The notes under the pieces were generated by a model. It did no database searches, was not told where the DNA came from, and worked only from the letters and a program-made list of their open reading frames with translations. Below are positions 7,499 to 31,169 of a stretch of DNA of 64,000 nucleotides, piece after piece. The position numbers were made by a program, and so were the translations under genes. The stretch is from a virus. The stretch spans positions 64,001 to 128,000 of the IMG/VR virus record IMGVR_UViG_3300032309_001546; one strand, given 5' to 3'. The number at the start of each line of letters is the position of its first letter. Within the stretch, counting starts at the first letter, position 1.

Positions 7499-7499
7499 A

Positions 7500-7677: not shown

Positions 7678-7698
7678 AAAATAGCAAACAAAATAAAG

Positions 7699-15119: not shown

Positions 15120-15197
15120 GATAATCCTTATATTGTTCATTAGATATATTAATATTTTAACGCAATAAGAAAGGCCGGCGCAGCCGGCCATGCTTAC

Positions 15198-15476
15198 TTA
15201 ATTTTCTGTTCCATCGATTGCATACTCAATCTTAAATTGATGAATAGCCTTAAGAAGTGAAACAAATGCATTCAGAATGCAAAGACAAGAAGTGTCGTTA
15301 ACTTGCTCTGCCATCTGATTAGACAAATACCACATTGTTGATAGTAGGTGTCCAGGAAGCTGGCCATTCAAGTCATGAATAATCATGTCATATAATTCGC
15401 TCTTGCTAATTTGATCAGTCTGTTGAAGTCTATAAACTTGAAAAATAAGATCTGAATTAATTGAGGGACCAGTCAT
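15198..15476 (-). CDS. Hypothetical protein
   Basis: 92-aa ORF with AAGGAG RBS. Confidence 0.7.
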   Translation of the reverse strand: MTGPSINSDLIFQVYRLQQTDQISKSELYDMIIHDLNGQLPGHLLSTMWYLSNQMAEQVNDTSCLCILNAFVSLLKAIHQFKIEYAIDGTEN

Positions 15477-15486
15477 TGTTAACTCC

Positions 15487-16191
15487 TTAGGCTAAAGCTT
15501 TTTCCATTTGGTTACCATGTGCAATAAATGCAATAATAGGTGCAGCTTTCTTGCTACCATTACAAAGCCTACACTGATTACAAGTAATACTGCTTTTGGT
15601 TTGCGCTGGACAGACAACTACTTTATTACCAGCTGGACTAGTAAATGCATGAGGACTATCTTCACCTACAATTGTTGTAGCTCTCCATCCCTGAGCAACT
15701 GCAAGATCTGCGTCATTAATTTTTTCGCAGCTTGCCATAAGAGAACCACGCCAATTCTTAGCTACTTTCTCTTCTCTCCAGTGATGGGTATACCCTACTA
15801 ATTCAAGTTTTGTTTTGCTAATAGTTTCTTTGATCTCAGATGCTTGCGTTGCTGAGCATCTTCCGATGTCACCAATGGCGGATACACGAACCATTCTAGC
15901 GGCCTTGTGTCTATTCTTAAGAGCGTAAGATAAGGTCTTATCAGCGCCTTTTGCATAGGCACGCCTAGTTGAACTAGATCCAATATTGACGCTACCACTC
16001 CACGCATAACAGCCGTTACCTCTGAGCTTACATCCATCGCAACTCTCCCATGCTTCTTGCTTAGTATAGCCAATATATAGAGTAGGAACATTGCCAGTCT
16101 TTACGTTAACAGCCTGAGCATTCCAAATAAGGTTAAAGTCTACTTCTTGTGAAGAGGACTGTAGTGATTCTAAAATATTATCGTAATTCAT
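15487..16191 (-). CDS. Conserved Cys-rich phage protein (possible metal/Fe-S binding)
   Basis: N.KTG, SCDGC....GCYA, R....GD, GYTHHW, MASCE, VCPAQ...TCNQCRLC, IAF.AHG. Confidence 0.7.
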   Translation of the reverse strand: MNYDNILESLQSSSQEVDFNLIWNAQAVNVKTGNVPTLYIGYTKQEAWESCDGCKLRGNGCYAWSGSVNIGSSSTRRAYAKGADKTLSYALKNRHKAARMVRVSAIGDIGRCSATQASEIKETISKTKLELVGYTHHWREEKVAKNWRGSLMASCEKINDADLAVAQGWRATTIVGEDSPHAFTSPAGNKVVVCPAQTKSSITCNQCRLCNGSKKAAPIIAFIAHGNQMEKALA

Positions 16192-16317
16192 ATAAATATC
16201 CTAATATGAATAATTAAAAATCAAATATCAAAGAATACATTGTAAACAAATACAGATAAACAAAAAGTCCCAAGTATTTCTACTTGGAACTTATTTATTA
16301 CTTACATTTGAATATTA

Positions 16318-16761
16318 CTATTCTAAAGTTTTCTTAGCTATTTTCTTTGGAGCATAGCTAACTTTATGTAAACCATTTTTAATACCAAAATCTTTACCAA
16401 AAGTAGAAACTGCCTGATAGACATACCAAGCTCTAATAGCCCACATTCCATCTTCTTTGCACATTTGCTGAAGAAGACGGTCTGCTTTGTCTCTATAAGA
16501 CAAAGGAAGATGCTTTTCTATAATAAGCTGATAAAGAACATCATGGACTAAAGATCCACGCATGAAATCCTTACTGTCAACAGCTGGACCTGAAGCTCCA
16601 TCCCATGCATAGCCATGACGAATTGTCAATGTGCCATCACCAAGAAATTCTATATATTCGGTTTTGATATTCAAGGGAGGAATTATATTTATTTTACAAG
16701 TATAATCCTCTTTTAATTGATATTTCCAACCATCTGTATATGTAATGTAACCTTCAGTCAT
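16318..16761 (-). CDS. DUF1353-family protein
   Basis: GYAWDGASGP...SLVHDVLYQ...R.KAD........DGM...RA..VY.AV..FG. Confidence 0.8.
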   Translation of the reverse strand: MTEGYITYTDGWKYQLKEDYTCKINIIPPLNIKTEYIEFLGDGTLTIRHGYAWDGASGPAVDSKDFMRGSLVHDVLYQLIIEKHLPLSYRDKADRLLQQMCKEDGMWAIRAWYVYQAVSTFGKDFGIKNGLHKVSYAPKKIAKKTLE

Positions 16762-16770
16762 GATATTCCT

Positions 16771-17415
16771 TTAAGTGTGAGTTACTGCAGCTAATGCCAT
16801 CTTGGTACCATGACCATCATACCAAGCTCTATTCATCTTACCAAAGGCAGCAACAGTTTCCTGCTGCTTAATTGGATCAGGTCCGGCCTTAAATAACCTC
16901 TTAGCGCCAGTTTCTGTACAGTGAGACTGTGAAGTTATAGTAAGAGCTTGAAGCTCACTAAAGCCTGCAGCAAGACATGCCAGATAAATCTGGCGATATC
17001 TAGCCAAAGTTAAAGTGATCTCTTGAGTTGAAGTCATACTCCAAGGCTTTGAATCCTTAGGAATAGTAGCTTCTGTCTCAGGCTTATAGCCAGGTACCCA
17101 GTTAAGCCTTCGTCTAAGATCCTGATAAGCAGGGTTATTAAATTGATAACAACCCCAAGCAGTAACCATTGCCTTACCATTCCTTTGTTCCTTAGGAAGG
17201 AAATTAAAGGTATTAGCAGGTAAAGAAAGAGTAGCTGAACTCTCGTGCTTGGCAAGTAGAATTGCCCATCTCTGGAATTCCACAGAATCATTTGCAGTTA
17301 CAGATTGAATTAACTCAATCGCATCTCCCATTTCAACTACTGTCTTAGCAGTAGCTGGCATACCAGGAGGAACTTTATTCTTCCAATACCTACCGTAGTA
17401 AGGTAAGGTGTCCAT
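16771..17415 (-). CDS. Lysozyme-like/lytic transglycosylase-like protein
   Basis: Catalytic-Glu-like AKHESS followed by AWGCYQF (GxxQ motif). Confidence 0.55.
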   Translation of the reverse strand: MDTLPYYGRYWKNKVPPGMPATAKTVVEMGDAIELIQSVTANDSVEFQRWAILLAKHESSATLSLPANTFNFLPKEQRNGKAMVTAWGCYQFNNPAYQDLRRRLNWVPGYKPETEATIPKDSKPWSMTSTQEITLTLARYRQIYLACLAAGFSELQALTITSQSHCTETGAKRLFKAGPDPIKQQETVAAFGKMNRAWYDGHGTKMALAAVTHT

Positions 17416-17846
17416 TACTGAGCATCAACCTCAGCAGCAGTGGCTGCATCAGCAGGATGAGCAGGATGTGTATCGAAAGGCACACCTAGAACAGCCTCAG
17501 CCGCCACGGTCTTGGCATCATAAGGAAGTGCTCTAGGAGCAGCCTCAGTAGCTGCACTGCCACTAGCAGCAGGTGCAGGGGTAGCTGCACTACCCGATCC
17601 AGAGCCAACACCTGAACCAGCTGGAGCCTCAACGGCAGCAGGAGCAGTAGTAGCACGACCAGTCACAAAACCGACAACACCACCTAGAAGGGGAAGCACC
17701 AACGCTAGAACTGCAGCAGCTACACGAGAAAGGAACCAGCCACTCTGCTTAACTACCGCAGGAGCCGCAGCAGCAAGGGCTGCCTCAGCCATAACCTTCA
17801 TACCATCACCAGTAATCTTTGAAAGATCAGTACCATCAACACTCAT
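17415..17846 (-). CDS. Ala-rich membrane protein
   Basis: One hydrophobic segment (VAAAVLALVLPLLGGVVGFV) and a low-complexity A/G/S/P tail; likely start MSVDG. Confidence 0.7.
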   Translation of the reverse strand: MSVDGTDLSKITGDGMKVMAEAALAAAAPAVVKQSGWFLSRVAAAVLALVLPLLGGVVGFVTGRATTAPAAVEAPAGSGVGSGSGSAATPAPAASGSAATEAAPRALPYDAKTVAAEAVLGVPFDTHPAHPADAATAAEVDAQ

Positions 17847-19112
17847 AATTATCTCCTTTGTCAAAATTAGAGGCCTGAGCCACCTCTGTTAAAATTGTTA
17901 TAATCTCAGCGTAAACAGTATAAGCATCGCAGTCATCTAGATTGTAACCTTTAGCTACAAATCTAGCATTAAGCATTTGCGCAATTGAACTAATTGCTTG
18001 AATATCTGGATAGAAGCCAGCGCCTCTGCTCATAAGCAAAGCGAATTGACCTTCTGTCGTGTTAATATCAAATCCAGTATTAAGATTATCCATTAGATCT
18101 CCTAGATAGATTCATGGCTCTTAAGTTTAAACTTAAGGTCTTTGCTTTCTGGTTGAGGAACATCACTAGCAATACTATGAAATTTTTCCAATGCAAGAGC
18201 AAACGAAGTTACAGGATGTAAACTATAAGCTGTGCCAAGTAAAGTGCCACGGTCATCTGCATGCATAAAGCATGTAGCCCATCTACCTTCACTATTTAAC
18301 CACATCTCAAATCTAAATCTGCCAAATCTACAATACCAAACACCATCTTTAGCTTTATCAAAAAGTATTTTATATGTAGCTTCTAGATGTTGTCGATAAG
18401 TAAGAAATTCTTGATCTGCTTTATTTATATTTAATATTGTCATAGTATCACTTGTTATAAAATATTATGTATTATGGCTTTCAACTAGTAAGTCTTGTTC
18501 TTCAACAATTAGAACAGTCTTAAAGACTTTAGTTTCTCCATAAATGGGAATCAAAGATTTACGCATTGCAAAAACAAGAGGCTTAGACTCAGAAGCATTC
18601 ATGTAATAGACTGGCTGAAAATTTTTATCTAAAAAAACATATATTTCATAGGTCTTAAGCCAACCAGCAGGAGTCTCTCCATGCTCATAAATTGCCTTCG
18701 TCATTAGTTATCCTCTCTCTGCATACTTAGCAGATGTTGAATATCTTCACGGATATCTTCAACTTTTGTAATTAGCTCCTCAACTTGTCTTTCAAGCTGA
18801 GTAATCTTAAATTCTAGATCGTATTCATCAGGCATTGTCGTCTTCCTCCTCCTCCTCAAGGTCTGCAAAGTCTTCCAGGACAAGAACAGGCTTGCTAAGA
18901 GCATCTCGCATCTGATTAAGCGTTTTCTGTAGTTCATCAAAAGACTCTGCACTTACAAAAGGCTCACAGTAAGTAGAAACAAGTCCATTTCTATACTGAA
19001 CTTCTACGATGCGAAAATCCTCATAAACAGATCCCTCAATCTCACTAGTAGTCTTAAGGACTCTATGATTCCATGTAAAGCTATAGTCAAGGTCGTATTG
19101 ATAATCACTCAT
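17836..19112 (-). CDS. Run of small hypothetical genes (17836..18093, 18102..18443, 18465..18704, about 18704..18835, 18828..19112)
   Basis: Abutting or overlapping stop-start junctions on the minus strand; no recognisable motifs. Confidence 0.65.
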
Positions 19113-19180
19113 CCCAATTCCTGTAAAGTAGTATTGCTGTATACGTAAATAAAGTAATCATAAATAGACAGAGTAAAACA

Positions 19181-19651
19181 TTACTCAGCATCTGGCTTAT
19201 CTTCCTCTTCTTCGTCCTCATAATCAAGCTCTACAAGCTTATTACCAGTTTCTGCAATATACTCATCACTATGAGTCTTGCATAGGGTCGTCCACCATCC
19301 TCTGTAGGAACCACAGTGTCCGGGCTCACCACAGACCTCACAAGTCTTAGCACTAAGAGCTCTGGCTTCTGAGATAAACTTGTCAATAGTAGGACAACTA
19401 TAGTCTAGATAAAAGGACAAAGTTCCAAACTTTTCTTTAACCTGAACAGCCTCAATAGTGTACCTAGGGTACGTAAGCTTAGTCTCATCAACATAAGCCT
19501 TAATCTTAGCACAAAGATCGTCAAGTAGCTGATACCATCCATCACCAGTATCAATGCCCCAACACATACATGTCTGAGTCATTGGAAGATGCCGCTGACA
19601 AAAGATATCAGGATATTTCTCAAAAAGCTGGTCTTGTAGTTCTTGTTTCAT
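19181..19651 (-). CDS. Conserved phage hypothetical protein
   Basis: GDGW..L...LC, QVKEKFGTL.FY, TCEVCG..G....GW..TLC..H motif family. Confidence 0.8.
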   Translation of the reverse strand: MKQELQDQLFEKYPDIFCQRHLPMTQTCMCWGIDTGDGWYQLLDDLCAKIKAYVDETKLTYPRYTIEAVQVKEKFGTLSFYLDYSCPTIDKFISEARALSAKTCEVCGEPGHCGSYRGWWTTLCKTHSDEYIAETGNKLVELDYEDEEEEDKPDAE

Positions 19652-19791
19652 TATTCATCCTCTTCTGTGAAAAGATAGTCGTCTTCAACAAACCAAGATT
19701 CTTCATCTTCTAGGTATTGACCTGAAGACTCGTCAGCAAGCTTATTAAGCTCATCAATAGCAAGGTCTTTCATTCTTCCCATGTTAATCTC

Positions 19792-20190
19792 CTACCACCA
19801 ACAGATATAGTAAACTTTCTTTCCAAGAGCAACTTCTATATAGGCTCTGCAAAAAATTTCAATATCTTCTCTAAGCCTATCTTCATTACAAAAGTCACCA
19901 GTATGAAATGGTCCATTTGCAGGCGGAAGATTACTAGCAAGAAGATCCTCAAAAAGTGCTTTAAGATCTTCTAAGTCTAGATAGACTTTCTCAACATTAA
20001 ATGCGCTAATATCAAAGTAATCATCACCAAATCTAACCGTACGCATAGTAACTTCTGGCTTATACTTTTTAAGCCAAAGTTTTTCAAACCAGGCATTAAG
20101 ATCGCCATGTTTACGCCAAGATCCAATTTCTTCGTCATTTTCATCAGAATTCTCAGGATCTTCAATCCTAAGATACATATCAAGTCCCAT
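19792..20190 (-). CDS. MGLDMY-family phage protein (paralog 1)
   Basis: MGLDMY...WRKH..L..WFE...FN....L...LP...GKKVYY.CWW. Confidence 0.8.
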   Translation of the reverse strand: MGLDMYLRIEDPENSDENDEEIGSWRKHGDLNAWFEKLWLKKYKPEVTMRTVRFGDDYFDISAFNVEKVYLDLEDLKALFEDLLASNLPPANGPFHTGDFCNEDRLREDIEIFCRAYIEVALGKKVYYICWW

Positions 20191-20199
20191 ATTATTCTC

Positions 20200-20592
20200 C
20201 TACCAGGAACTGGTATAAAAGACTTTCTTACCAATAGCAAGTTCAATAGCAGCTTTTCCAAGCAATTCTAGATCTATTTCTAGTTGTTCTTCAGTCTTCT
20301 CACTTCCTGCACTAAAAGGCACGTCTGTGTTAGGAAGCCTATCATTGATAATTGCATCTTGCAATTGAGTAAGAAGGGCCATATCCACGTAGACTGATAC
20401 TCCATTAAAGCAACTAAGAATAAAAGTGTCTTCTCCAAAGGACACATTTACACTGACTTTGTCTGGCTTATGATTTTCAATCCAAAAGTTTTCCATCCAA
20501 CCATGAAGGTTAGAATGATTACGCCAGTATGCAATCTTCTCAACGTCTCCTGTATTAGGATCCTCAGAAACAAAGTACATATCAAGACCCAT
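20200..20592 (-). CDS. MGLDMY-family phage protein (paralog 2)
   Basis: MGLDMY...YWRNH..LHGWME...FN...LP...GKKVFYTSSW. Confidence 0.8.
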   Translation of the reverse strand: MGLDMYFVSEDPNTGDVEKIAYWRNHSNLHGWMENFWIENHKPDKVSVNVSFGEDTFILSCFNGVSVYVDMALLTQLQDAIINDRLPNTDVPFSAGSEKTEEQLEIDLELLGKAAIELAIGKKVFYTSSW

Positions 20593-20942
20593 TTTATCAC
20601 CTGTTATTAAGTGTTGCTTAATAGGTAAAAAATACTATTTAAACTGTAAATTTAAATTATTAGTTGTTGCATAATCTGCAAGCTCTTGTCCATCACTAAA
20701 GCTTTTAAACTTTGAAAGATCAGGACCAAAAAGTAAATATTGTTTTGTTCCATCCTTTATAAAAGTATAAACAATACAATGATTTAGCTTTGTTGTTTCA
20801 TACCACTGTGACATTAACTCTCAGGTTCTTGTGGAGTTACTGGCTTGTCTTTGTCGATTGGAGCCTGATTAGCTAGCTTTGCAGCAAGTACAATCTCTTT
20901 TAGACGATTAGATAACATTGCAAATCTATCCATTTTAAATCC

Positions 20943-21203
20943 TTAGTCAACATAATTTTTAAAATTTGAATAATTAATTAGACTATTACCAAGTTTAGTA
21001 AGAACTCCGTCTTTCCAAGCAATTGAGCTATCCATAAGATCTCTTACTTCTTGCTCTGAAAGATTAGAAGTATCTTCACCTTCTTCGCTGTCATCAGTCA
21101 AGTAGATAATCCCATTACCTTTTGAGATTGCAATAGCGTCAAGAATATCTTCAGACTCAACAACTTCACAAGTTTTATTCTTGGGATTAGCATAAACGTA
21201 CAT
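20943..21203 (-). CDS. Hypothetical protein
   Basis: 86-aa ORF with AAGGAG RBS. Confidence 0.7.
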   Translation of the reverse strand: MYVYANPKNKTCEVVESEDILDAIAISKGNGIIYLTDDSEEGEDTSNLSEQEVRDLMDSSIAWKDGVLTKLGNSLINYSNFKNYVD

Positions 21204-21265
21204 ATATTATCTCCTTATTATTAATTACCAATAATAACTAATAATAAGAAATAATCAAAAAGTAC

Positions 21266-21844
21266 TTAGATTATATGGAAAGCTGTCTTATAAAGCTCAG
21301 AGTCTTCTATATACTCTTGTTCTTTATAATAAAATCCAGTATCTTTATCTTGTATTTGTTGTTGTTGCACCGCTTTTATTACTTCATTCTTAAATAAGCT
21401 TGCAAAACCAAGTGTCAAACCACCAAAAAGTAAACCAATTATTGTTCTAACTATAGTTCTAGTTAGCCATTCACGGTTTTCTGACTCTTTTTTCTCTTTT
21501 TCTGTCCGAATATCAACTTTTACACGCTCAATTTCTTTAGCTATACGGTCATTTTGATCAATCGTAAATCGCGTAAGTAATTTCTCATTTTCACTTCTAT
21601 TTAACTCTATAGTCTTATTAATCGCTTCTATCTGCTGACGCTGAAGCTCAGCAAGCGAATCAAGATCTTTCTCTACGTCTCTGAGACGCATATTTATTCC
21701 GGGATTTCCGTCATAAGATCCAAGGACTATTGTCTTTAGATCATCAATTGCTTTATCATGTTTTTCATGACTTTTCTTTAAATCATCAAGCTTAGTGTTG
21801 ATGGAGTCAAGTAAAGAATTAGGGCAATCGGTTGAGTTTGACAT
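21266..21844 (-). CDS. Coiled-coil protein with one C-terminal transmembrane helix
   Basis: Heptad-rich N-terminus followed by TIIGLLFGGLTLGFASLF. Confidence 0.7.
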   Translation of the reverse strand: MSNSTDCPNSLLDSINTKLDDLKKSHEKHDKAIDDLKTIVLGSYDGNPGINMRLRDVEKDLDSLAELQRQQIEAINKTIELNRSENEKLLTRFTIDQNDRIAKEIERVKVDIRTEKEKKESENREWLTRTIVRTIIGLLFGGLTLGFASLFKNEVIKAVQQQQIQDKDTGFYYKEQEYIEDSELYKTAFHII

Positions 21845-22171
21845 TGGGAAATCCTCTATAAATAAATAGTATTGTTAAAACATTTTCACCACCTGTATAG
21901 AGGAAACTAGACAATTCTATCTAGCCCTAAATCATAGTGTAATTATACTAGAGTTTACAGTATCTTATACTTTTGATGTATTTTTGATAAAGAAAAAACC
22001 CTAGGTTTTACGCCACTTTTTCAACCATCTATTTTACTTATAAGTAGCAAAATAAAAATAGTTAAAATTAGCATAAAACCTAAGGTTTTCTTTCTTTTTA
22101 GCCTAAAGCGGCAAGCAAATTAAAATAAAAGCAATGACTAGAAATATGATAGCAGCTGCTTGAATTTCCAT

Positions 22172-22393
22172 TTAATATCCAGAACGAGTTATGTTTGCAA
22201 TCTCGTAGTGATCTTTATCATAAAGACGCCAAGAATTCCAATCATCTCCAGGATCACTAAAAGAACTATGAACTAGATGAAATGTTTCAGCTTGCTGAAG
22301 TACAACTTCATTAAAGTTCAACTTAATACGCTCACTTTTAAGATACTCGCGAATATTCTTATTACCATTAATGGTAGCTCCAATGTAAGGCAT
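22172..22393 (-). CDS. Hypothetical protein
   Basis: 73-aa ORF with GAGGA RBS. Confidence 0.65.
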   Translation of the reverse strand: MPYIGATINGNKNIREYLKSERIKLNFNEVVLQQAETFHLVHSSFSDPGDDWNSWRLYDKDHYEIANITRSGY

Positions 22394-22406
22394 TTAGTTC
22401 TCCTCT

Positions 22407-23873
22407 TTAGTAAGGTGCATCAATCATTTCATAACCATATGCAGGAATTCCGTAAGGATATCCAGGAATAGCAAATTTAACTTTCTTTGGGGCAGGAGCA
22501 GGATACTCTAACTTAGCCTTCTTAATCTCAGCCTCGAGATAAGAAGAAAAGCTCTTACTAGCTGGTGTACTCTTATTGTTCCGGTCAAAACACTGAATAA
22601 TATGACCATTAGTCATGCTGACCATAGCACATACGTTTCCTTTACGGAAAAACATATGGCTATTATCATTGTAGTAACTACCAATACAGTGTGCACAGTC
22701 ACTGCCCGCGACTCTCATCTCATTAGAAGTCTTAATACGGATCTTTTCAAGATGCTCCGGCAAAGCAAGAGTAGGCATATCACGATCAGGAACATTAACA
22801 TCATACTTAAGCAGTGCAAGACGATTCTGTTCCGCCGCGATTCTATGATTATTAACACTAGCATTAATCATTTCAAGAACACTCATAGTCTCGTAATCAA
22901 TAGCACTAAGACGCTCATCTCTGGCTCGAAGACCAGGAAGGCCCATACGGTAACCATCCTTAATGAACTTTTCCACAGCCTCTGCAAGACCAGTACCAAC
23001 ATTAACAGGATGAAGATCCTTCATAGCCTTTACCCAGCCATCAAGAATCTTAACATCATTAACTTTGCTCATCTTCGTATAAAGAGTAGCCTGGTTCTTA
23101 TCAATATCAGCCAGTAGCTTAGGGATACCATTGCCACTCATCTCTTCATTATGATTAATAGGAATCAACTGAACATACTCACAAGCAAGACCAGAATGGA
23201 ACCAACTAAGCCGCCGATTACTAAAGGTACGGTACTTGTAGCTCTGAATGAATTCCGCATTAATAGGATGATTTTGCATTAGAGACTTTGTCTCTGGAGC
23301 TTCATCTCTAGTCATAGAAATTTTTCTAGGAGTCCAATTGCCACGAGGAGCATTGCCATTAGGCCAGATCTTAACAGAATCCCAAGCTTTCATAGTACGA
23401 ATAGACTGAGGAATCTTATTAAGCAGTACCCGTCTATCAGTATACTTCAAAGACGAGTAACCATGGTTAAAAGCGCGCTTTACAGTGAACTTTTCCCAAG
23501 GGGTACGGGCATTATGAAGATCCTTAAGAGCCCAAGTAAGATCAACAAGATCATTAGACTCTCTAGGGAAGGAACTAGGATCCTTACTTCTCTCAGTAGT
23601 CTGATGACAAGCAGAGATAAGAGTTATCGCAGCATCAAGCTTATCATGCATATCCTTATGCCAGTAAGCAAGGCCGGCAACCAAGTTAATAATAGTCTTG
23701 TGCCGAGACATCATAGGCTTAATATAGTGCCATCTAGCACTTACTTTATAAGCACCATTCTTACTCTTATTACTGTAGTGCCGCGGCATATTCTTCATCT
23801 TAATATCAAGACGATCATTCATATTCTTCCACAAGTAATTCTTATCCTCAACAAACGCATTAAAGTCATACAT
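22407..23873 (-). CDS. PcfJ-like domain protein
   Basis: C-terminal IKTSNEMRVAGSDCAHCIGSY...IIQCFDRNN matches the PcfJ pattern L..EG..M.HCVG.Y...Q.....N. Start moved to MYDFN at 23873 (AGGAG RBS). Confidence 0.7.
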   Translation of the reverse strand: MYDFNAFVEDKNYLWKNMNDRLDIKMKNMPRHYSNKSKNGAYKVSARWHYIKPMMSRHKTIINLVAGLAYWHKDMHDKLDAAITLISACHQTTERSKDPSSFPRESNDLVDLTWALKDLHNARTPWEKFTVKRAFNHGYSSLKYTDRRVLLNKIPQSIRTMKAWDSVKIWPNGNAPRGNWTPRKISMTRDEAPETKSLMQNHPINAEFIQSYKYRTFSNRRLSWFHSGLACEYVQLIPINHNEEMSGNGIPKLLADIDKNQATLYTKMSKVNDVKILDGWVKAMKDLHPVNVGTGLAEAVEKFIKDGYRMGLPGLRARDERLSAIDYETMSVLEMINASVNNHRIAAEQNRLALLKYDVNVPDRDMPTLALPEHLEKIRIKTSNEMRVAGSDCAHCIGSYYNDNSHMFFRKGNVCAMVSMTNGHIIQCFDRNNKSTPASKSFSSYLEAEIKKAKLEYPAPAPKKVKFAIPGYPYGIPAYGYEMIDAPY

Positions 23874-24077
23874 TAGTAAGTCTCCTAAGTAGATTAGATC
23901 ATTGTTTAGCCAAGAGATAAAAAAGAGCACTGTAAGAGGCCGGCGCAGCCGGCCCATAAATAAAGTACATTGAAGACTATATACTAGTAAAGAGAGATAG
24001 ACAGAGTAATAGGATATACAGAAGAGATTAAGGTCTAGACAGTAAGGAGTATACATGTAGCATGACAAGTCATGTCC

Positions 24078-24425
24078 TGCTATACCCTGCGTTATACCTT
24101 GCTATACCCTGCAAATACCCTGCAGATCCCCTTAAAATACCTTGCTATACCTACCCCGCTCCTACAAACTATACCAATATACCTTGTCCTCGCGTAAGCC
24201 CGTCTTATACCTCTATATACCCCTATATGCCAAAAGCATACAAGGCTATTCTCTGGACTCTTTTTGAACAAGTTCTTATACCCCTATATAGTAAACTTAT
24301 ATACTTGTATGTATACTTGTATACCCCTATGGGGCAAAAGCTGCCTTCATGAAACTCTGGATATCCATCGTAAAACTCTGGACTCTTTTTGGATCTTAAA
24401 AATGACTCTTATCTCTGGACTCTTT
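24078..24425. repeat. Low-complexity short-repeat tract (about 12 x (T/A)ATACC, then 4 x CTCTGGA)
   Basis: ctataccc/ttatacct/aataccc units across 24078-24330; ctctgga(ctcttt) at about 24251, 24355, 24377 and 24413. Confidence 0.8.
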
Positions 24426-24486
24426 ATGGTCTCAGAATCCTGGCCCGGTTGCTTGCATGTATAGCCCTTTATAGCTATATCCTCCT

Positions 24487-24520
24487 TGAAAAGAAAAACC
24501 CTGCTGTTAGGCAGGGTTCT
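24487..24520 (-). terminator. Intrinsic terminator
   Basis: AACCCTGC-ctaaca-GCAGGGTT hairpin followed by a T-rich tract on the minus strand. Confidence 0.8.
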
Positions 24521-24531
24521 CTTCCTTGAGA

Positions 24532-24921
24532 TTAGATCTCTTGGGCATGAGAGTGACGAGTCTCTCGATTAGGACTGTTAGCAGCACGGCGGCGCTTGAT
24601 AGCCTCCAACTTTGCAGCTAGTTCATTTTCCTCACGTTCAGCATTCAAAGCATCCAACTTACGCTGGTACTCACGCTGAGCACGGGTCGTCTTTACTTCC
24701 TCAACAGGCTTACTAGTAGATTGAGATGCTGCGGGTCTAATACCCTCAACCTTCTCAGTTACCATATTACTACCCTTCTTGAGGATAGGACCAAACAACC
24801 CCATGAAGATAGCAGGGATTACTAGAAGAACAGTACCGAAGATACCCCAAAGGGCACCTGCTGCACCTGCTGCTCCTGCTTTGGCAAGAAATGTTCCGCC
24901 TTCTGCGCCTACATCAGCCAT
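24532..24921 (-). CDS. Membrane protein with C-terminal coiled coil
   Basis: Hydrophobic ALWGIFGTVLLVIPAIFMGLFG; GGAGG RBS. Confidence 0.75.
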   Translation of the reverse strand: MADVGAEGGTFLAKAGAAGAAGALWGIFGTVLLVIPAIFMGLFGPILKKGSNMVTEKVEGIRPAASQSTSKPVEEVKTTRAQREYQRKLDALNAEREENELAAKLEAIKRRRAANSPNRETRHSHAQEI

Positions 24922-24923
24922 GA

Positions 24924-25238
24924 TTAGCCCTCCACTCGATAGAATGCACCTGCATTAGGTGCGTGAATCTGAATAGCGCGATAACCTGGATGAAGCGGCT
25001 TACCCGTTGCATCCTTCTTGTGTCGCTTTAGAAATAGAGGAAGGTTCTTGAAGCCCAAGGTGAATCCCTCGGCACCAATCTCCCCATTGCTCCATACCTC
25101 GATATCATCACCACCCATCTTGCAACGAGTAACGACGAAGCTACCAGCCTCTGTACGAACTCGTGCTACAGTAGGAACTGCAGGGTTAGATGAACCAACT
25201 CGAATCACACCACTCGCGGTCAAAACATCACTCATCAT
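24924..25238 (-). CDS. Hypothetical protein
   Basis: Start moved to MMSDVL (GAGG RBS); the longer ORF call overlaps tRNA-Arg. Confidence 0.7.
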   Translation of the reverse strand: MMSDVLTASGVIRVGSSNPAVPTVARVRTEAGSFVVTRCKMGGDDIEVWSNGEIGAEGFTLGFKNLPLFLKRHKKDATGKPLHPGYRAIQIHAPNAGAFYRVEG

Positions 25239-25283
25239 ATACCTCTCATGTTGTACTCTAGAATATAGAGCGTTTGGGGAAAG

Positions 25284-25358
25284 TGTGCCCGACTGGACTT
25301 GAACCAGTGACCTACGGCTTAGAAGGCCGTTGCAACTATCCAACTGTGCTACGGGCAC
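25284..25358 (-). tRNA. tRNA-Arg(UCU)
   Basis: GTGCCCG/CGGGCAC acceptor, ACGGC-CTTCTAA-GCCGT anticodon arm, ACTGG-TTCAAGT-CCAGT T-arm. Confidence 0.95.
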
Positions 25359-25386
25359 GCAGCCTAGGTTTTACCCTAGTAGTTGT

Positions 25387-25881
25387 TTAGAAGCCGTCTC
25401 CATCCTCGAAGACAAAGTTGTCAGCAGGATTTCCGGCAGTCTGACGACGACGCACAGTAGTACGAGCCACAGCACGGACTGCAGGAGTTGCCACAGGACC
25501 AGCCGCCTTCATCTGCTGAGGAGCTGGAGTAGAAGCAGGTGCTGCTTCCTTGGTTGGCCGGCGACCATAGTTGATCTCATTCGCGACAACTTCAGTGATG
25601 TAGCGGGTCTCACCCTTGCTCTCATACTGACGAGTCTTGATTCGACCCTCGATCTCGGCCTCACTACCCTTTGACAGGTACTTGGCAGCATTCTCTGCAG
25701 CCTTACCCCACACAACAACACGATGCCACTCCGGCTCACTGACCGTCTCTCCCGCCTTATTTACGTACTCGTAATTAGTGCAGATAGACAAAGTAGCCCG
25801 GCTACGGCCAGTTTCAGTCGTAGACAACTTGGGATCATCACCAAGGAAACCACGAAGCTCAACACGATTCTTATTACGCAT
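25387..25881 (-). CDS. ssb: Single-stranded DNA-binding protein
   Basis: NRVELRGFLGDDP, EWHRVVVWGKAAE..AKYL.KG....IEGRIKTRQYE, acidic tail EDGDGF. Confidence 0.95.
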   Translation of the reverse strand: MRNKNRVELRGFLGDDPKLSTTETGRSRATLSICTNYEYVNKAGETVSEPEWHRVVVWGKAAENAAKYLSKGSEAEIEGRIKTRQYESKGETRYITEVVANEINYGRRPTKEAAPASTPAPQQMKAAGPVATPAVRAVARTTVRRRQTAGNPADNFVFEDGDGF

Positions 25882-26327
25882 CTCTCATCTCAACTTACCC
25901 ATCCACTGATGGTAATGTTTATTTCAATAAAGCATAATACTCACGATAAAAAGCGAGCGCAGCGAAGCTAATGTATGCCAAGTACAAAGATCTGAAACAT
26001 TGTACTAACAATGCTCAAAAATGTAATGGCAAAGTATAAAACGAAGATCCCACTGATAATGTCCCACAGTGTAGATTTCTTCATGCTAGGAAAAACACTA
26101 TCTCTGAAAGCACATTTGTGAAGAGTACCTTCAGTATCCAAGCTATTCCAATCAACGTAATGATTCTTTGCATTATTACCTCGTAGCTAGAGCCAAGATA
26201 GCAATAGCAGGCCAGATCAGACTAGCCGCAGTATAAGCAAACACAAACCAGACAGGAACCACAACGCTTGCAGTTCCATTGATGTGGCTCATAGTGAAGG
26301 ATACAGTACTCATAAGAATTGACTTCA

Positions 26328-28816
26328 TTAGATCCCCTTTCTGGTTTCGGCGTCTCCGATGTTGACGAACTTTGCTCCCTTGAATTTGCGGTACGAGGCG
26401 ATGAGAAGGCCTGGGACTCTCTGTACCCAGATGCCACCTTGTGCTTTGATTCGCTTTGCGATCCGCCTTGCAGCGTATCGATTAGGCGTTTCATGCACGG
26501 AAAGACATCCACTAGCAACAAGTACACTGTACATTAGATCTCCTGGTTGCGGATGATTTCAATTTCTTGACTGATCCGGATATCCCGGACAGCAAGCATC
26601 AAAGTACTGATACGGTCAACTCCCCAGACTGCTTCCAGCATTGCAATCAAGTATGCAATGTTCTCTGCATTTCGGTAGTTGATGTCAAAAAGACGGTTAT
26701 CGACTTTATCCATAGGATCTACGTTTTCCATGTTCTTCTCCTACTTGATGTCTTCAGCGCGGGCGATTGCCTCTGCTGCGAGAATGATGCATTCAAGGTT
26801 CTCGAAGTTCTTTTCAAGATACTCGATGCGGTTACGGGCCTTACGAGATCCTTCCTTGATTGCGAAGTCTTCATTCCACAGAGGAGCGGTGTCCTGAAGT
26901 AGATTGAATGCACAACGGTACTCTTGGAGCTGGGCCTTTCGACTTTCACGGGTATTAGCCGTAAGGTTGATGTAAGTCAGGTGATGAAAAGTATCGGTAA
27001 TCAGACTCTTTGTCTCGTACATTTATTCCTCCGAGGAATTGTTGTTGAACTTGAACTTGCGGCATCCATTCTTAGATTCCTCCTTCCGGGGGTCTCCATG
27101 GTTGCCGTTCTTGAAACCACCGTAAGCAAGCGTCATTGCGGCGCTATCACGACGAGGGACAAACTTATCTTTCTTTACAGTCTTTGACATTGTAACCTAC
27201 AGGTATAAGTAGCTAGAATCAAAGAACATCACTGCTGCGATGATCCAGAAAGCAACGCCGCCATAAAAACTGGCGACGAGAAGGGTTGTTTCAGCAAGGT
27301 TGAAGGTGTGCTCTTCAAACCGCTCCTTGTCAATGTTGAATGTAATCTTCATGACCAGTAACTCCAGCGAAGGATGTCAATGAGGACCATGAATGCGCAA
27401 GCAGCGAATCCAAGTCCACTAAGACAGAAAAAGAACAACGTGCAGAATTGCCAATTGTTCACAGTAACAGCATACTTACCAACTTGAATCTTGTGCATTC
27501 TTATTCTCCTTCAGGAAACAAACGAAAGAACTTATCCTCTGCCCAGTCTTCAAATGAGAAGTCCAGTTCTCGGTCAAGACCAAGTTCCGCAGCTTCAATC
27601 AACAAGTTATCCTCATTCTTGTCAAACCACTCTTCAAAGTCAATCATGGTGTCCTCCTTAGGACATAAGGGTTTAGAATTGTTCGAATGCCTTCTCAGCG
27701 TGAGCAAGCGCAAGGACAAGGCTATCTCTGTAGCCCTCAAGCTCTGGATGGGTTGGTAGTACACCATTTGCCCGCGTAACCAAACTCTTGAGAGTAGATA
27801 CCATGCCTTTCAGCGCATCGTAATCTATTCCACTATGACCAGCATACATCTTCATCATGACTTACTCCTCCAAACCAGAGTGATTGAGGAAGTCCCCGAT
27901 AACGGCATGGATAGCGCTGACCTTGTCACCAGCATATCCGTTCCAGTCATGGACTTCCATGCTATTGTCAGCGCGGACATCAAGGCCAAGGATCATGACA
28001 TCTCCCTGGTAGATCTTGATAAACGCAGATCCAGTCTCTATGTTCTTCAAAAAGTCTACAGTCAGCATGTTGTCCTCCAAGGACATAAGGGGGAAAGTCT
28101 TCCTGATAGGATTCGAACCTATCTGCTAGACCCGCAGAAGGCGGGTTTGCAATACCATAAGGAAGTGATTCAGCCTTTGTGGCTACTGGACATGACACCC
28201 AATAGGTTATCCTACCAACGGGCAGGTTACAGGCTGTTGACCTATTGGACTACTAGTTCTCTGGGAAGATGTTTCCCAGCAGAAACTCTTGACATTCCAG
28301 TCGGGAGCTGGGCTCGTAGTAAGGAGCGAGTTCAGGATCACGGGCGTTGACCTTGGCTCTCTTGGCCTTGATCTGTTCCCTGAAATCCTGAAGTTCCTTG
28401 CTGCCCTTCTCCATGCGCATGATAGAGTCTGTCTCGTTAGTGAGGACTTCTCCCCACAACTTCAGACCCTTCTTCAACGTCTCAAGGAACACGGGAGTCA
28501 TGGATACCAGGTGAGCAATCTGGTAGAAGCAATTCTCGTGGACACTGTTCTCCAAAGAGATGCCGACATCTCTCCAGCCAGTGCCATGGTCCCAGTACAG
28601 ACCCTGGAACTCCAAGTCAACTACCTGGATGGTGTTCGGAAAACTGACCTTGAAGGTCGTATCTTCCCACCTCTTGCTCCAGGGGTCCTGTTCCTTAGCG
28701 GAGTAGAAGTTCTTCGTGCTCTTCTGGACAACCTCGATGTTCCAATCATGCTCTTCACAGATACTCTCCAGAGTCTTCTGGATGATAAAGTCAAGGACAA
28801 TGTCTTTCATGTTCAT
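26328..28816 (-). CDS. Run of small hypothetical genes (26328..26534, 26534..26731, 26741..27022, about 27501..27647, 27673..27858, about 27862..28070, 28253..28816)
   Basis: Short minus-strand ORFs, most with GGAG/GGAGG RBS and tight spacing; no recognisable domains. Confidence 0.65.
28098..28165 (-). ncRNA. tRNA-like element 1 (no proper D-stem, non-canonical anticodon loop)
   Basis: CTTCCT-TATGGTATTGCAA-ACCCGC-CTTCT-GCGGGT-CTAGCA-GATAGG-TTCGAAT-CCTATC-AGGAAG-A, intergenic. Confidence 0.6.
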
Positions 28817-28941
28817 TCTCCAGTAAAGAGGTAACATTACCTCTGAGGTTATAAAAAGTGCTCCAGTTTACAGACATGGAGCAAGGTCACGGGACACCAT
28901 TATTTGTGCTCCCCTATACTAGGCTGTTTCTCACCTAGTAA

Positions 28942-29013
28942 TTCAATCATATGGGAATCGAACCCATAACTAGATATCCATAATGGTATATCTAGCGTCA
29001 CCAGACTAATCAA
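28942..29013 (-). ncRNA. tRNA-like element 2 (mini D-arm, elongated anticodon-position stem)
   Basis: TTGATTA-GTC-TGGT-GAC-G-CTAGATAT-ACCATTATGG-ATATCTAG-TT-ATGGG-TTCGATT-CCCAT-A-TGATTGA. Confidence 0.55.
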
Positions 29014-29470
29014 AAGGGTACGGGTCGTCTTATTTGCTAGCGTGCGAACCCCTTCCCAGTCGTTACTAGCGAACTAGTAACCACCCCATGTCTATATAAC
29101 TACTAGGGCAGGGGTCCCTAATAATTAGCCCATGTTTACTCTCATTACTCGCGGCAGGGCTCCGCCAGTAATAAACCCTATGTTTATCTCGTTACTAGAA
29201 GCAAGGGACTAACTAGTAACCACCCCGTGTTCATCTTGTCCATTAGTGGCTGAGGCCCACTAACAGCCAGCCTATCTTTATAGCCAGGTTTGCAACCCTG
29301 ACACCCCTAGGTTTCCATGAACGGTAGGCGCGTTCATGTGTTTCTAGAAGGATTAGAAGGTGACGTCTTGCAGTACGAACAATAGGGTTTACATCCCCTA
29401 CTATTCGCAATGTAACCTGCGTGACGCCGTAAACTTGTGAGCATTTTATAGACCTACTCAGGTCTGAGGA

Positions 29471-29677
29471 TTACACGAAGAAGCGACGAGCCACGTGAAC
29501 GGCCTCAATGAGAGACTCAGAACCAGTGCTGGCATCTTCCTCGTATTCCTCGAAATCGACAAACTCTTCAGGACTGTCCGGGCGATGGCTCCAGTCGATG
29601 CGGTCAATGACCTCATCTTCGCTACCGACAGGAATGTTGAAGCAATCCTCAAAAGACACGAACTCAACAGGGACCAT
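29471..29677 (-). CDS. Small acidic hypothetical protein
   Basis: 68-aa ORF with GGAG RBS, located downstream of a GCA-triloop hairpin. Confidence 0.65.
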   Translation of the reverse strand: MVPVEFVSFEDCFNIPVGSEDEVIDRIDWSHRPDSPEEFVDFEEYEEDASTGSESLIEAVHVARRFFV

Positions 29678-29762
29678 GACAGACTCCGTTTGTTACGAAG
29701 ACACACATAATGTCTTCACCATGAAAGGCGAGCGCAGCGAGCCTAATACTGTGTAGCGGAGT

Positions 29763-29800
29763 AAAAATAAAACCCCAACACATCCTACTGTGCTGGGGTT
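29763..29800 (-). terminator. Intrinsic terminator
   Basis: AACCCCAGCACA...TGTGTTGGGGTT hairpin followed by TTATTTTT on the minus strand. Confidence 0.75.
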
Positions 29801-30364
29801 CTATCTCTCTATCTCGCATTAGGACACTAGCAGGGTCACTACTAGTTACGAGTCTATCAGCCCAAGAGGAGGCTTATCCAAATCGTAATGCGGAATTGGC
29901 AACCGCACCTGTCTACTTACACTAGAACCCGACAGGCCCTTTCTAGTGCTTTGATACCCGACAACTACTGGTGTGGTATCTACTGGAGTCTTGAGCCCAG
30001 TCTACTCTCCTCCTGGGTACGCCTAACTAGGCTCACCATGCTCCCCCGAGGTTGGGAACATGGGTACGGGGCGCGTAACTGCCCCTTCCCAGTTTTTATG
30101 TTAAGCGGACTGGGAACCGCCCCTGTCTGATACATACCAGAAGCCGACAGGCCTCATCTGGTACGAGTAGCGGTAGCTACTATCCGCCATGTGAGGCGAG
30201 CGCAGCGAGCCTAATAGAATCCTATTACCTGGACTCTGTCTGGCCATACTAGTAATGCAACTATTTTTGGCCGACCCTAGTAAAGGGGTTTCCCCCCGAG
30301 TAGGGGGGTTTCGTGGGGGTAAAAAAGTTCCCCTCCCACACTGTAAGTGTGAGAGGGGGGTTCT

Positions 30365-30844
30365 CTAGTCCCAGTCGCCAGCAACAGGGGCGGACTTGCG
30401 GGCGGCAGGCTTGGCGGCGGGCTTGGCAGGCCTCGCGGGAGCCTTGGCAGCGGGCTTGGCGGGTGCCTTGGCGGGCTCCTCGACAACACCGTGACGACGC
30501 ATAAGCGCCTTCTCGGTGGCCAAGAGACGAATCTGGGCCTTGCTGTACACGATGAGCCTGGTGGCGTTGTGCCAGGCCTTGTCATCGCTCTGCCAGGACT
30601 CCGTCTCGAGGCCTGCCCCGTCGATGTGCACGAAATTGTACCCGCTCTCGTCCGCCTTTGCGACGAACCAGTTCACGAGCTCCTGGCCGACCAGACGCAC
30701 CCGCGTCCAGTTGGTGTCCTCCGTCCCGTAGGACGAACTGACCGAGAAGTCCGCGTACTTTCCGCTGGCCCCGATCACGGGCTGCTTGCCCATGTAGCCG
30801 AAGCCCGAGACCTTGAGGGTGAGAAACTTGCGATTCTGTTCCAT
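30365..30844 (-). CDS. Divergent SSB-like OB-fold protein
   Basis: G.MGKQP...ADFSV....EDTNWTRVRLVG...VHIDG..LETESWQS, AKP-rich linker, acidic tip GDWD. Start MEQNRK after GGAG. Confidence 0.7.
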   Translation of the reverse strand: MEQNRKFLTLKVSGFGYMGKQPVIGASGKYADFSVSSSYGTEDTNWTRVRLVGQELVNWFVAKADESGYNFVHIDGAGLETESWQSDDKAWHNATRLIVYSKAQIRLLATEKALMRRHGVVEEPAKAPAKPAAKAPARPAKPAAKPAARKSAPVAGDWD

Positions 30845-30888
30845 TGACGTTCTCCGTGGTAAGTGAGCCAAAGGCGGCTCATCATGAA

Positions 30889-31087
30889 AGGCGAGCGCAG
30901 CGATGCCTGTGCTGCGGCGTTGTTGCTGTTGCCTGCGTAGCGCAGCGGAGCAGGCTGTGTTGCTACCTGCGGAGCGCAGCGAAGCAGGGTAACCACGTAG
31001 CGCAGCGGAGTGGTGTGTCCTGTGGTTCTGATGAGCGTAGCGCAGCGGAGTGAATCAGAGGCGAGGACTCGGCGCAGCCCAGCGGAG
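30889..31087 (+). promoter_or_regulatory. Cluster of about five GC-GCA-GC triloop DNA hairpins
   Basis: AGGC-GA-GCGCAGC-GAT-GCCT; CCTGC-GTA-GCGCAGC-GGA-GCAGG; CCTGC-GGA-GCGCAGC-GAA-GCAGG; ACCAC-GTA-GCGCAGC-GGA-GTGGT; one more near 31036. Confidence 0.65.
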
Positions 31088-31169
31088 TATCTGGACTTTT
31101 TTACGACTATTTGTACTATTTTTGTATTATAGAAAGAATAGCCCATTGCTGGGCTACTCAATCTAATGG

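What the first reader, a model, noticed from the sequence alone, without database searches (positions are those of the whole stretch)
15173..30908. Template-strand GCA-triloop DNA hairpins 45-75 bp upstream of leftward genes (candidate hairpin promoters)
Seen on the plus (template) strand: AGGC-GA-GC-GCA-GC-GA-GCCT at 29726 and 30194, variants at 30889 and 25952, and perfect GGCCGGC-GCA-GCCGGCC at 15173 and 23938. Five sit just upstream of a start codon (both SSB genes included) and one upstream of an ORF-free unit; 25952, 29726 and 30889 share a flanking TCA(C/T).AT(G/A)AA. Established: GNA triloops and tandem sheared GA pairs are especially stable in ssDNA and are strand-specific; N4 virion RNAP promoters are 3-nt-loop hairpins on the template strand. 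Inference: promoters for the phage polymerase, or priming sites.
Basis: partly seen in the sequence, partly recalled or inferred. Interest (0 to 1): 0.75.

Follow-up and report, generated by a model that had tools for sequence, protein, structure and literature searches.

The report
Template-strand DNA hairpin start signals
An uncultured 146-kb freshwater phage and its distant relatives place small, one-strand-only DNA hairpins in front of the genes that follow their unusual RNA polymerase gene; these are most likely start signals (promoters) for that polymerase, a design known so far only from the unrelated phage N4.

Summary
All six hairpins are at the stated coordinates, and there are more: a five-copy array at 30931-31090 and a third perfect copy 8.6 kb left of the window. 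The core GCGCAGC occurs 17 times on the + strand and 6 on the - strand (5 expected). The full motif occurs only on the + strand, which is the template for the leftward genes.

Outer stems covary, while the G and A of each GNA unit never change. G.T wobbles occur only on the purine strand.

The 2265-aa neighbouring gene folds as a QDE-1/crAss-type two-barrel RNA polymerase. Six lineages carrying this polymerase each have their own template-strand C-GNA-G hairpins, placed after terminators and about 45-70 nt before start codons. A conserved TG(R)G lies 9-12 nt past the hairpin base. One perfect hairpin is the positional orthologue of a GA-type hairpin in a distant relative, so it is not merely a terminator.

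Best reading (about 0.5): N4-like hairpin promoters used by a different polymerase class. No 5' ends could be mapped. The exact 17-mer also occurs in unrelated viruses in which no homologue of this polymerase was detected. Nearest-neighbour energies do not single out the interrupted hairpins.

Earlier notes of this scan describe similar hairpins on other DNA; I did not check them.

The parts
15173..15189 (+). Perfect hairpin GGCCGGC-GCA-GCCGGCC. It lies 8 nt after a stop codon and 52 nt before the next start.
   Evidence: It also fits an intrinsic terminator on the - strand (tail TTTCTTATT).
23938..23954 (+). Perfect hairpin, 64 nt before the start of the PcfJ-like gene. It is conserved in L005 and is the positional orthologue of a GA-type hairpin in L010.
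25952..25969 (+). AGC-GA-GC-GCA-GC-GAA-GCT variant, 70 nt before the SSB gene start.
29726..29744 (+). AGGC-GA-GC-GCA-GC-GA-GCCT. It lies 25 nt after the terminator stem (29770-29798) of the ORF-free unit, which spans 29799-30190, and 48 nt before a 68-aa gene.
30194..30212 (+). The same 19-mer at the head of a roughly 400-nt ORF-free unit.
   Evidence: A relative's RNA contig (depth 117) covers part of the unit.
30889..30907 (+). AGGC-GA-GC-GCA-GC-GAT-GCCT variant, 44 nt before the SSB-like gene.
30931..31090 (+). Array of five further copies. Three are regular stem-GNA-GC-GCA-GC-GNA-stem, at 30931-30955, 30966-30988 and 30992-31014. Two are irregular, near 31043 and 31075. All lie in the leader of the SSB-like gene.
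29714..29717 (-). Conserved sense-strand T-G-R-G box 9-12 nt past the hairpin base. Equivalent places are 30877-30880, 25940-25943, 23926-23929 and 15161-15164. This is the predicted start region.
   Evidence: T 13/17, G 14/17, R 15/17. The start site itself is inferred.
31170..37967 (-). 2265-aa gene whose core (residues about 560-1300) is a two-barrel single-chain RNA polymerase. DUF4326 and YpsA/SLOG domains lie at the C-terminal end.
30365..30844 (-). SSB-like gene that follows the hairpin array.
25387..25881 (-). SSB gene.
31095..31138 (-). Promoter-like repeat of the second class (AAATAGT type), ending in ACTCCGCTGGGCT, between the polymerase-gene terminator and the array.
30243..30272 (-). 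AAATAGT-type promoter-like motif about 30 nt upstream of the 30194 hairpin.

Best explanation
These are DNA hairpins that fold on the template strand only. Each has a GNA triloop closed by a C-G pair inside a GC-rich heptamer. In most copies this is flanked by G.A-type purine mismatches, and outside these lies a stem whose sequence is free as long as it pairs.

They mark the heads of leftward transcription units downstream of the gene for a QDE-1/crAss-type two-barrel RNA polymerase. Most likely they are promoter elements for that polymerase. The proposed steps are:
1. The hairpin is extruded or kept open, possibly with help from one of the two phage SSB-type proteins.
2. The polymerase binds the loop and core.
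3. RNA synthesis starts about 10 nt downstream, at a conserved TG(R)G.

Shown here: the sequences, the strand exclusivity, the covariation, recurrence in six polymerase-bearing lineages, placement after terminators and before ribosome-binding sites, and the polymerase fold.

Inferred: that the hairpin forms in vivo, that the polymerase reads it, and where RNA starts. The role of the array copies, which lack the downstream box, is open.
For: 1. Strand. The strict motif gives 26 hits on the template strand and 0 on the other. Perfect C-GNA-G hairpins in relatives run about 41 on the template strand to 4 on the sense strand.
2. Pairing. On 12 distinct copies, 92.7% of cells pair, 5 of 6 outer pairs change on both sides, and 0 of 500 shuffles reach this. 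Slid controls give 19-64%. Internal G.T wobbles occur only on this strand.
3. Invariance. The G and A of every GNA unit never change while N varies.
4. Lineage-specific versions in contigs that carry a homologue of the polymerase:
   - GG-GA-GC-GGA-GC-GA-CC, 5 copies
   - CCCGC-GAA-GCGGG, 3 copies
   - GGCC-GA-C-GAA-G-GA-GGCC, 7 copies; three follow a terminator within 0-2 nt, and three lie about 33-50 nt before a start codon
   - GTCCGCC-GAA-GGCGGAC, 5 copies, and AGC-A-CGCC-GAA-GGCG-G-GCT, 6 copies
5. Downstream box. T, G and R at +9, +10 and +11 in 13-15 of 17 copies, across two lineages whose hairpins and spacers differ.
6. Orthology. The perfect hairpin at 23938 aligns with a GA-type hairpin of L010 in front of the orthologous gene.
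7. Polymerase. AF2 pLDDT is 83. The top Foldseek hits are QDE-1, RDR2, crAss phi14:2 gp66 and P23-45 gp64/gp96, with probability 1.0. DG, KG, RxP and GxDxDD are invariant.
8. Literature. N4 promoters are template-strand hairpins with a GC-rich heptamer, a C:G-closed loop with 5'G and 3'A, and free stem bases, and they are activated by SSB (PMC4496689). gp66 and QDE-1 transcribe single-stranded DNA, and no promoter motif was found for gp66 (bioRxiv 2020.03.07.982082). d(gcGCAgc) is a very stable DNA mini-hairpin (PMC3201870).
Against: There is no 5'-end evidence. The one RNA run held contigs of a relative, and one contig may run through the 30194 hairpin position.

The 30194 hairpin and the array lie downstream of AAATAGT-type promoter-like motifs, so they could be inside transcripts. 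The array copies lack the TG(R)G box.

The hairpins cover only about 10 sites in the leftward block, and none lies in the rightward structural block.

The exact 17-mer GGCGAGCGCAGCGAGCC also occurs, intergenic, in unrelated AT-rich viral records in which no homologue of this polymerase was detected. One of these records is 99% complete. That search had no positive control, so the absence is not established.

Nearest-neighbour DNA energies do not separate the interrupted hairpins from shuffles (z -0.2 to -0.7).

Two of the three perfect copies also look like ordinary intrinsic terminators.
Confidence: 0.5

Rival explanations
1. The hairpins are single-strand or duplex binding sites for a regulator rather than initiation sites. 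The regulator could be the SSB-like protein encoded right behind the array, or a factor controlling pausing, antitermination or polymerase loading. Read as duplex or single strand, the core is also three tandem GNAGC pentamers.
For: The array sits in the leader of the SSB-like gene, and its copies lack the downstream TG(R)G box. The conserved positions form a direct repeat, GNAGC three times. Arrays follow the polymerase gene, or the YpsA gene next to it, in four lineages even though the next gene differs.
Against: The single copies sit at a fixed distance from a conserved box and directly after terminators. Covarying outer stems show that intrastrand pairing matters, not only a repeat.
Confidence: 0.17
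2. The hairpins act at the RNA level or as terminators. The perfect hairpins would be ordinary Rho-independent terminators of leftward genes. The GA-type ones would be 5'-leader RNA structures for stability, processing or translation control.
For: The hairpins at 15173 and -8584 have a 7-bp GC stem followed by a T-rich tail within 8-16 nt of a stop codon. The 30194 hairpin and the array lie downstream of promoter-like motifs. Each GA-type hairpin is followed by a second small stem-loop in the leader.
Against: On the sense strand the conserved mismatches are U.C/C.U and the loop is UNC. The wobbles become A.C mismatches. Sense-strand folds are 1.7-7 kcal/mol weaker (typically about 2.5) with RNA parameters. 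The orthologous site in L010 carries a hairpin that cannot terminate, and L010 hairpins sit directly behind separate, good terminators. All three perfect copies are identical 17-mers, whereas other terminators here vary.
Confidence: 0.13
3. The hairpins are single-strand initiation (priming) signals or origin elements. SSB-resistant hairpins on the + strand would direct a primase, as in phage G4 or plasmid ssi sites.
For: The architecture matches: a stable GNA mini-hairpin plus a fixed-distance start box. SSB genes are adjacent. An iteron-like field of GGGTATA repeats (24050-24340) lies just upstream of the 23938 hairpin.
Against: Copies are spread over about 40 kb. Each lies between a terminator or stop codon and a ribosome-binding site. 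The same leader motif, ACTCCGCT, and a related box recur in the AAATAGT-type promoter-like repeats. All copies share the orientation of the genes.
Confidence: 0.12
4. The hairpins are recombination or cassette-shuffling modules like the PeSL elements of T4-type phages. On this view they are kept because they move genes, with no special strand-specific role.
For: Units differ between close relatives. The ORF-free unit is absent in L002/L006, and there is an extra hairpin-led gene in L001/L005. The neighbouring 38-45 kb region is a PeSL-like array of terminator-plus-promoter cassettes. PeSL properties are described in PMC2839356.
Against: PeSL stem-loops are terminators next to sigma-70 promoters. 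Here the stems are interrupted by conserved purine mismatches, are strand-specific, and are reinvented with the same geometry in lineages with only about 30% identical polymerases.
Confidence: 0.05

Closest known systems
Early promoters P1-P3 of coliphage N4, read by the virion RNA polymerase (PMC4496689)
   Same: Both are template-strand hairpins with a GC-rich heptamer and a 3-nt loop with 5'G and 3'A closed by C:G (sheared G:A). Some stem bases are fixed and others only need to pair. There is a short A-rich template spacer to a start at a fixed distance. SSB is involved in N4, and SSB genes are adjacent here.
   Different: The N4 enzyme is a T7-like single-subunit polymerase; here the only phage polymerase found is a two-barrel QDE-1/crAss-type enzyme. 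Most stems here are interrupted by tandem G.A-type mismatches. There is a tandem array of copies. The genome is 146 kb and not Schitoviridae-like. Function is untested.
crAss-like phage phi14:2 gp66 and fungal QDE-1 (two-barrel single-chain polymerases; bioRxiv 2020.03.07.982082)
   Same: These are the best structural matches to the polymerase core. Both enzymes transcribe single-stranded DNA far better than duplex DNA, and QDE-1 needs RPA.
   Different: No promoter motif is known for gp66. The catalytic loop here reads GxDxDD, not DxDGD or DFDxD. Whether this enzyme is virion-packed is unknown.
d(GCGAAGC)/d(GCGCAGC) extra-stable DNA mini-hairpins (PMC3201870)
   Same: The invariant heptamer GC-GNA-GC with a C-G closing pair is exactly this motif.
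   Different: Those are biophysical model oligonucleotides. Here the heptamer is embedded in a longer conserved hairpin with a genomic placement rule.
PeSL (promoter-early stem-loop) cassettes of T4-type phages RB49 and phi1 (PMC2839356)
   Same: Both are repeated intergenic modules that combine a stem-loop and a start signal in front of small genes, in a plastic genome region.
   Different: PeSL uses sigma-70 promoters and terminator stem-loops that fold equally on both strands. The elements here are strand-specific with purine mismatches and no sigma-70 boxes.

Membership tests
N4-type hairpin promoters | Hairpin on the template strand with a 5-7 bp stem and a 3-nt loop | tested here: met
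   Three perfect copies have a 7-bp stem and a 3-nt loop. The GA-type copies have a 3-nt loop with an interrupted stem of 8-11 positions. All are on the template strand of the adjacent genes.
N4-type hairpin promoters | Loop 5'G and 3'A with a C:G closing pair inside a GC-rich heptamer | tested here: met
   GC-G(C/T)A-GC is invariant in 18 aligned copies. Other lineages use GGA or GAA.
N4-type hairpin promoters | Non-conserved stem bases need only keep pairing | tested here: met
   5 of 6 outer pairs show changes on both sides, and 0 of 500 shuffles reach the observed pairing.
N4-type hairpin promoters | Transcription starts at a fixed distance downstream of the hairpin | tested here: inconclusive
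   A conserved TG(R)G lies at +9 to +12, but no 5' ends were available.
N4-type hairpin promoters | Read by a T7-like virion RNA polymerase (gp50 homologue) | tested here: inconclusive
   There is no PF00940 match in the 146-kb record, but the search's control genomes also did not ring, so this absence is weak. The phage polymerase that was found is a two-barrel enzyme. The element is therefore not filed as a member of the N4 family; at most it works like one.
N4-type hairpin promoters | Activation by supercoiling-driven extrusion and SSB | not testable with these tools
   The only evidence is circumstantial: one clear SSB gene and one probable SSB gene are each led by a hairpin.
Intrinsic (Rho-independent) terminators | Uninterrupted GC-rich stem followed at once by a U-tract, downstream of a gene | tested here: inconclusive
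   Met by the 15173 and -8584 copies. Weak for 23938, whose tail is TCTTACAG. Not met by the GA-type copies (interrupted stem, three T). The L010 orthologue of 23938 has no terminator features.
PeSL cassettes of T4-type phages | Sigma-70 type -35/-10 promoter joined to a terminator stem-loop | tested here: not met
   The consensus scan places no sigma-70-like site at any of the hairpins. The stems are strand-specific and interrupted.
Rfam RNA families | Match to a curated covariance model | tested here: not met
   Only tRNAs pass the gathering score in the window. Nothing credible appears at E up to 10 over 29650-31150.
Two-barrel single-chain RNA polymerases (QDE-1 / crAss gp66 type), for the neighbouring gene | Double-psi beta-barrel fold pair with an acidic metal-binding loop | tested here: met
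   The top 20 or so Foldseek hits are all such polymerases (E 2.5e-6, probability 1.0). GxDxDD is invariant in 20 homologues. Activity is untested.

The most novel reading that the evidence does not exclude
Template-strand GNA-triloop hairpins with sheared-G.A shoulders are the promoters of a whole family of QDE-1/crAss-type two-barrel single-chain RNA polymerases in freshwater phages. This would be a second, independent invention of the N4 hairpin-promoter principle. It would also give the first promoter rule for a polymerase class known to prefer single-stranded DNA.
Probability: 0.45. Interest if true: 0.85.

Novelty: new variant of a known kind. Interest (0 to 1): 0.72.

Why it matters
Hairpin promoters are textbook only for N4-like phages. 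For the two-barrel single-chain polymerases (crAss gp66, YonO, QDE-1 relatives), how start sites are chosen is largely unknown: gp66 transcribes single-stranded DNA, and no motif was found upstream of its transcripts.

A conserved, strand-specific hairpin with a fixed-distance box, reinvented in six lineages that share this polymerase, gives a concrete prediction that can be tested with oligonucleotides. It would also show that DNA secondary structure is a recurrent solution for phage transcription.

It further offers compact orthogonal promoter-polymerase pairs for tool building.

Tried and rejected
- **Close relatives in IMG/VR by protein patterns:** none found.
- **Megablast against deposited phages:** only a 71-nt tRNA-like hit.
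- **Rfam:** nothing at gathering or permissive thresholds.
- **RNA evidence:** one freshwater metatranscriptome held 10% of the words. Laid on 25000-44999, it gave contigs of a relative over the ORF-free units, but no starts, strands or ends, so there is no verdict on 5' ends.
- **PF00940 (T7-like polymerase):** no match in the genome or in four other records. The control genomes did not ring either, so this is weak.
- **Exact 17-mer scan of IMG/VR:** 95 records, mostly chance or coding hits in GC-rich viruses, plus a few real intergenic copies in unrelated AT-rich viruses. No homologue of the polymerase alignment was found in four of those records, in a search with no positive control.
- **AF2 of the SSB-like protein:** pLDDT 47, so not used for a fold search.
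- **Nearest-neighbour DNA folding:** the interrupted hairpins are not distinguishable from shuffles. The model carries no special terms for sheared G.A or GNA loops, so I did not use energies as support.
- **IS200/IS605 ends, integron attC and DGR hairpins:** considered and dropped. No transposase, integrase or reverse transcriptase turned up among the proteins I scanned or in the precomputed Pfam hits of the related loci, and the placement rule is transcriptional.

Full report
**What is in the sequence**

The window is bases 64001-128000 of a 145,919-bp IMG/VR virus record. Genes run leftward up to about 45,640 and rightward (terminase, portal and others) from 46,039.

They fall into two forms:
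- A perfect form, GGCCGGC-GCA-GCCGGCC, at 15173 and 23938, with a third identical copy at window -8584.
- An interrupted form, outer stem / GA or GNA / GC-GCA-GC / GA or GNA / outer stem. It occurs at 25952, 29726, 30194 and 30889, and as three regular and two irregular copies in an array at 30931-31090.

The core heptamer GCGCAGC occurs 17 times on the + strand and 6 on the - strand, against 5.3 expected. Nine copies lie in 5.1 kb, where 0.36 per 7.2 kb would be expected.

**Strand and pairing**

A strict structural scan required an outer stem of at least 3 pairs, G..A shoulders, and GC-GNA-GC. It finds 5 sites on the + strand of the genome and none on the - strand. It finds 21 sites on the corresponding strand of four close relatives and none on the other.

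On 12 distinct array-type copies, 92.7% of cells pair. Five of six outer pairs change on both sides, no shuffle out of 500 reaches this, and slid registers give 19-64%.

The G and A of all three GNA units are invariant, while N takes all four bases. Three internal wobbles are G.T on this strand, which would be A.C on the other. With RNA parameters the purine strand is 1.7-7 kcal/mol more stable, typically about 2.5.

With DNA nearest-neighbour parameters the interrupted hairpins are not distinguishable from shuffles. The case therefore rests on conservation and covariation, not on computed energy.

The purine strand is the template strand of every adjacent gene.

**Context**

Read on the sense strand, the order of elements is:
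1. The terminator of the 2265-aa gene.
2. An AAATAGT-type promoter-like motif ending in ACTCCGCTGGGCT.
3. The array, then one GA-type hairpin, then the SSB-like gene and its terminator.
4. Another AAATAGT-type motif, a hairpin, a roughly 400-nt ORF-free unit and its terminator.
5. ACTCCGCT, a hairpin, and a 68-aa gene.

Further down, a hairpin precedes the SSB gene (PF00436). Gaps from hairpin to start codon are 44-70 nt.

The AAATAGT-type motif is a separate and much commoner repeat. It has 15 strong copies at 38253-45049, each behind a terminator and ahead of a small gene.

**The polymerase**

The 2265-aa protein has no sequence match in the PDB or in PHROGs over its core. An exhaustive HMMER search finds about 20 related clusters. 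Their alignment has invariant DG, KG, RxP and GxDxDD.

An AF2 model of residues 560-1300 has pLDDT 83. Its best Foldseek matches are QDE-1, plant RDR2, crAss-like phi14:2 gp66 and P23-45 gp64/gp96, with probability 1.0.

So the phage encodes a two-barrel single-chain RNA polymerase.

**Relatives**

Contigs encoding homologues of this polymerase were fetched.

Close relatives (80-95% identical polymerase) keep the same hairpins, with GTA as an alternative loop and different outer stems.

Distant lineages (27-35% identity) each have a version of their own, always with the purine strand as template of the neighbouring genes:
- GG-GA-GC-GGA-GC-GA-CC, five copies behind the polymerase gene.
- CCCGC-GAA-GCGGG, three copies behind the polymerase gene.
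- GGCC-GA-C-GAA-G-GA-GGCC, seven copies. Three follow a good terminator within 0-2 nt, and three lie about 33-50 nt before a ribosome-binding site and start codon.
- GTCCGCC-GAA-GGCGGAC, five copies, and AGC-A-CGCC-GAA-GGCG-G-GCT, six copies.

Perfect C-GNA-G hairpins of at least 4 bp run about 41 on the template strand to 4 on the sense strand in these loci. One 10.7-kb locus and one 5-kb locus showed none.

**Two further points**

First, 9-12 nt beyond the hairpin base the sense strand reads T (13 of 17), G (14 of 17), R (15 of 17), G (10 of 17). This holds in two lineages whose hairpins and spacers differ.

Second, the perfect hairpin at 23938 aligns with a GA-type hairpin of the distant relative L010, in front of the orthologous gene. 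The L010 hairpin has no terminator features. The perfect form therefore belongs to the same class of element, although two of its three copies would also pass as intrinsic terminators.

**Interpretation**

The anatomy matches the N4 early promoters point for point, as described in PMC4496689:
- a template-strand hairpin;
- a GC-rich heptamer;
- a C:G-closed loop with 5'G and 3'A;
- free stem bases that must pair;
- a short A-rich template spacer to a fixed start;
- dependence on SSB.

The polymerase class differs. No T7-like enzyme was detected, though that search's controls were silent. The enzyme present belongs to the family whose studied members transcribe single-stranded DNA, and for which no promoter motif was found.

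I therefore read the hairpins as promoter elements of the two-barrel polymerase, with confidence of about one half.

**Evidence against, and limits**

- There are no mapped 5' ends.
- Two sites lie downstream of another promoter-like motif.
- The array copies have no downstream box.
- There are no such hairpins in the structural block.
- The exact 17-mer also occurs, intergenic, in unrelated AT-rich viral records, in which neither the polymerase alignment nor PF00940 found a match. Neither search had a positive control, so the absence is weak.

The rival readings are set out in their own section: regulator binding, RNA-level or terminator roles, priming signals, and recombination cassettes.

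**Comparison with the rest of the scan**

Earlier AI notes describe similar template-strand C-GNA-G hairpins next to two-barrel polymerases in other uncultured phages, and in giant viruses. I did not check those, and they are not counted as evidence here.

Noticed in passing
window 38227-45057 (and 31112, 39872): There are about 16 cassettes of terminator hairpin, then TACTTAAATAGT, a variable spacer and ATGGGCTAAAnTGTGG, each ahead of a small gene on the - strand. The motif is kept in relatives whose polymerase is only 27-35% identical (L004, L009, L121). The layout is PeSL-like, but without sigma-70 boxes.
   Followed up: partly
window 31170-37967 (-): The 2265-aa protein has, in order, an N-terminal membrane or signal segment, Ala/Lys/Pro-rich linkers, a two-barrel RNA polymerase core with GxDxDD in place of DxDGD, then DUF4326 and a YpsA/SLOG domain. 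In L120 and L122 the polymerase is instead fused to a PIF1-type helicase, and YpsA+DUF4326 is a separate gene. The L004/L008 contig has two polymerase paralogues.
   Followed up: partly
window 28840-29470 and 29799-30190 (-): Two ORF-free units are bounded by hairpin or terminator signals. Contigs of a relative in a freshwater metatranscriptome cover parts of both at high depth (501 and 117). They are candidate abundant phage non-coding RNAs with no Rfam match.
   Followed up: partly
window 24050-24340 (-): A gene-free field holds a dozen or so GGGTATA-type iterons, plus three CAAAAAGAGTCCAGAG repeats at 24238-24428, just upstream of the 23938 hairpin. This is a possible replication origin.
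   Followed up: no
window 31088, 31051, 31011, 29762, 28704 (- strand); L004, L009, L010, L120, L121, L122 leaders: The octamer ACTCCGCT occurs 5 times on the sense strand and never on the other (1.4 expected). It recurs in the leader behind the polymerase or YpsA gene in every lineage examined. Its complement contains a minimal C-GGA-G unit.
   Followed up: partly
G001 at 106986-107002; G002 at 45290-45306; G003 at 14257-14289 and 14369-14401 (loci L111, L114, L119): The exact 17-mer GGCGAGCGCAGCGAGCC sits as a GC-rich island in AT-rich intergenic DNA of unrelated viral records. In one provirus it occurs twice, with extended covarying outer stems and GGGA/GGGA shoulders. No homologue of the polymerase was detected in these records.
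   Followed up: partly
window 5030-5112, 7426-7779, 25283-25358 (-): There are six phage tRNA genes: Tyr, Thr, Pro, Lys, Met and Arg-UCU. The Arg gene lies directly behind the SSB gene.
   Followed up: no
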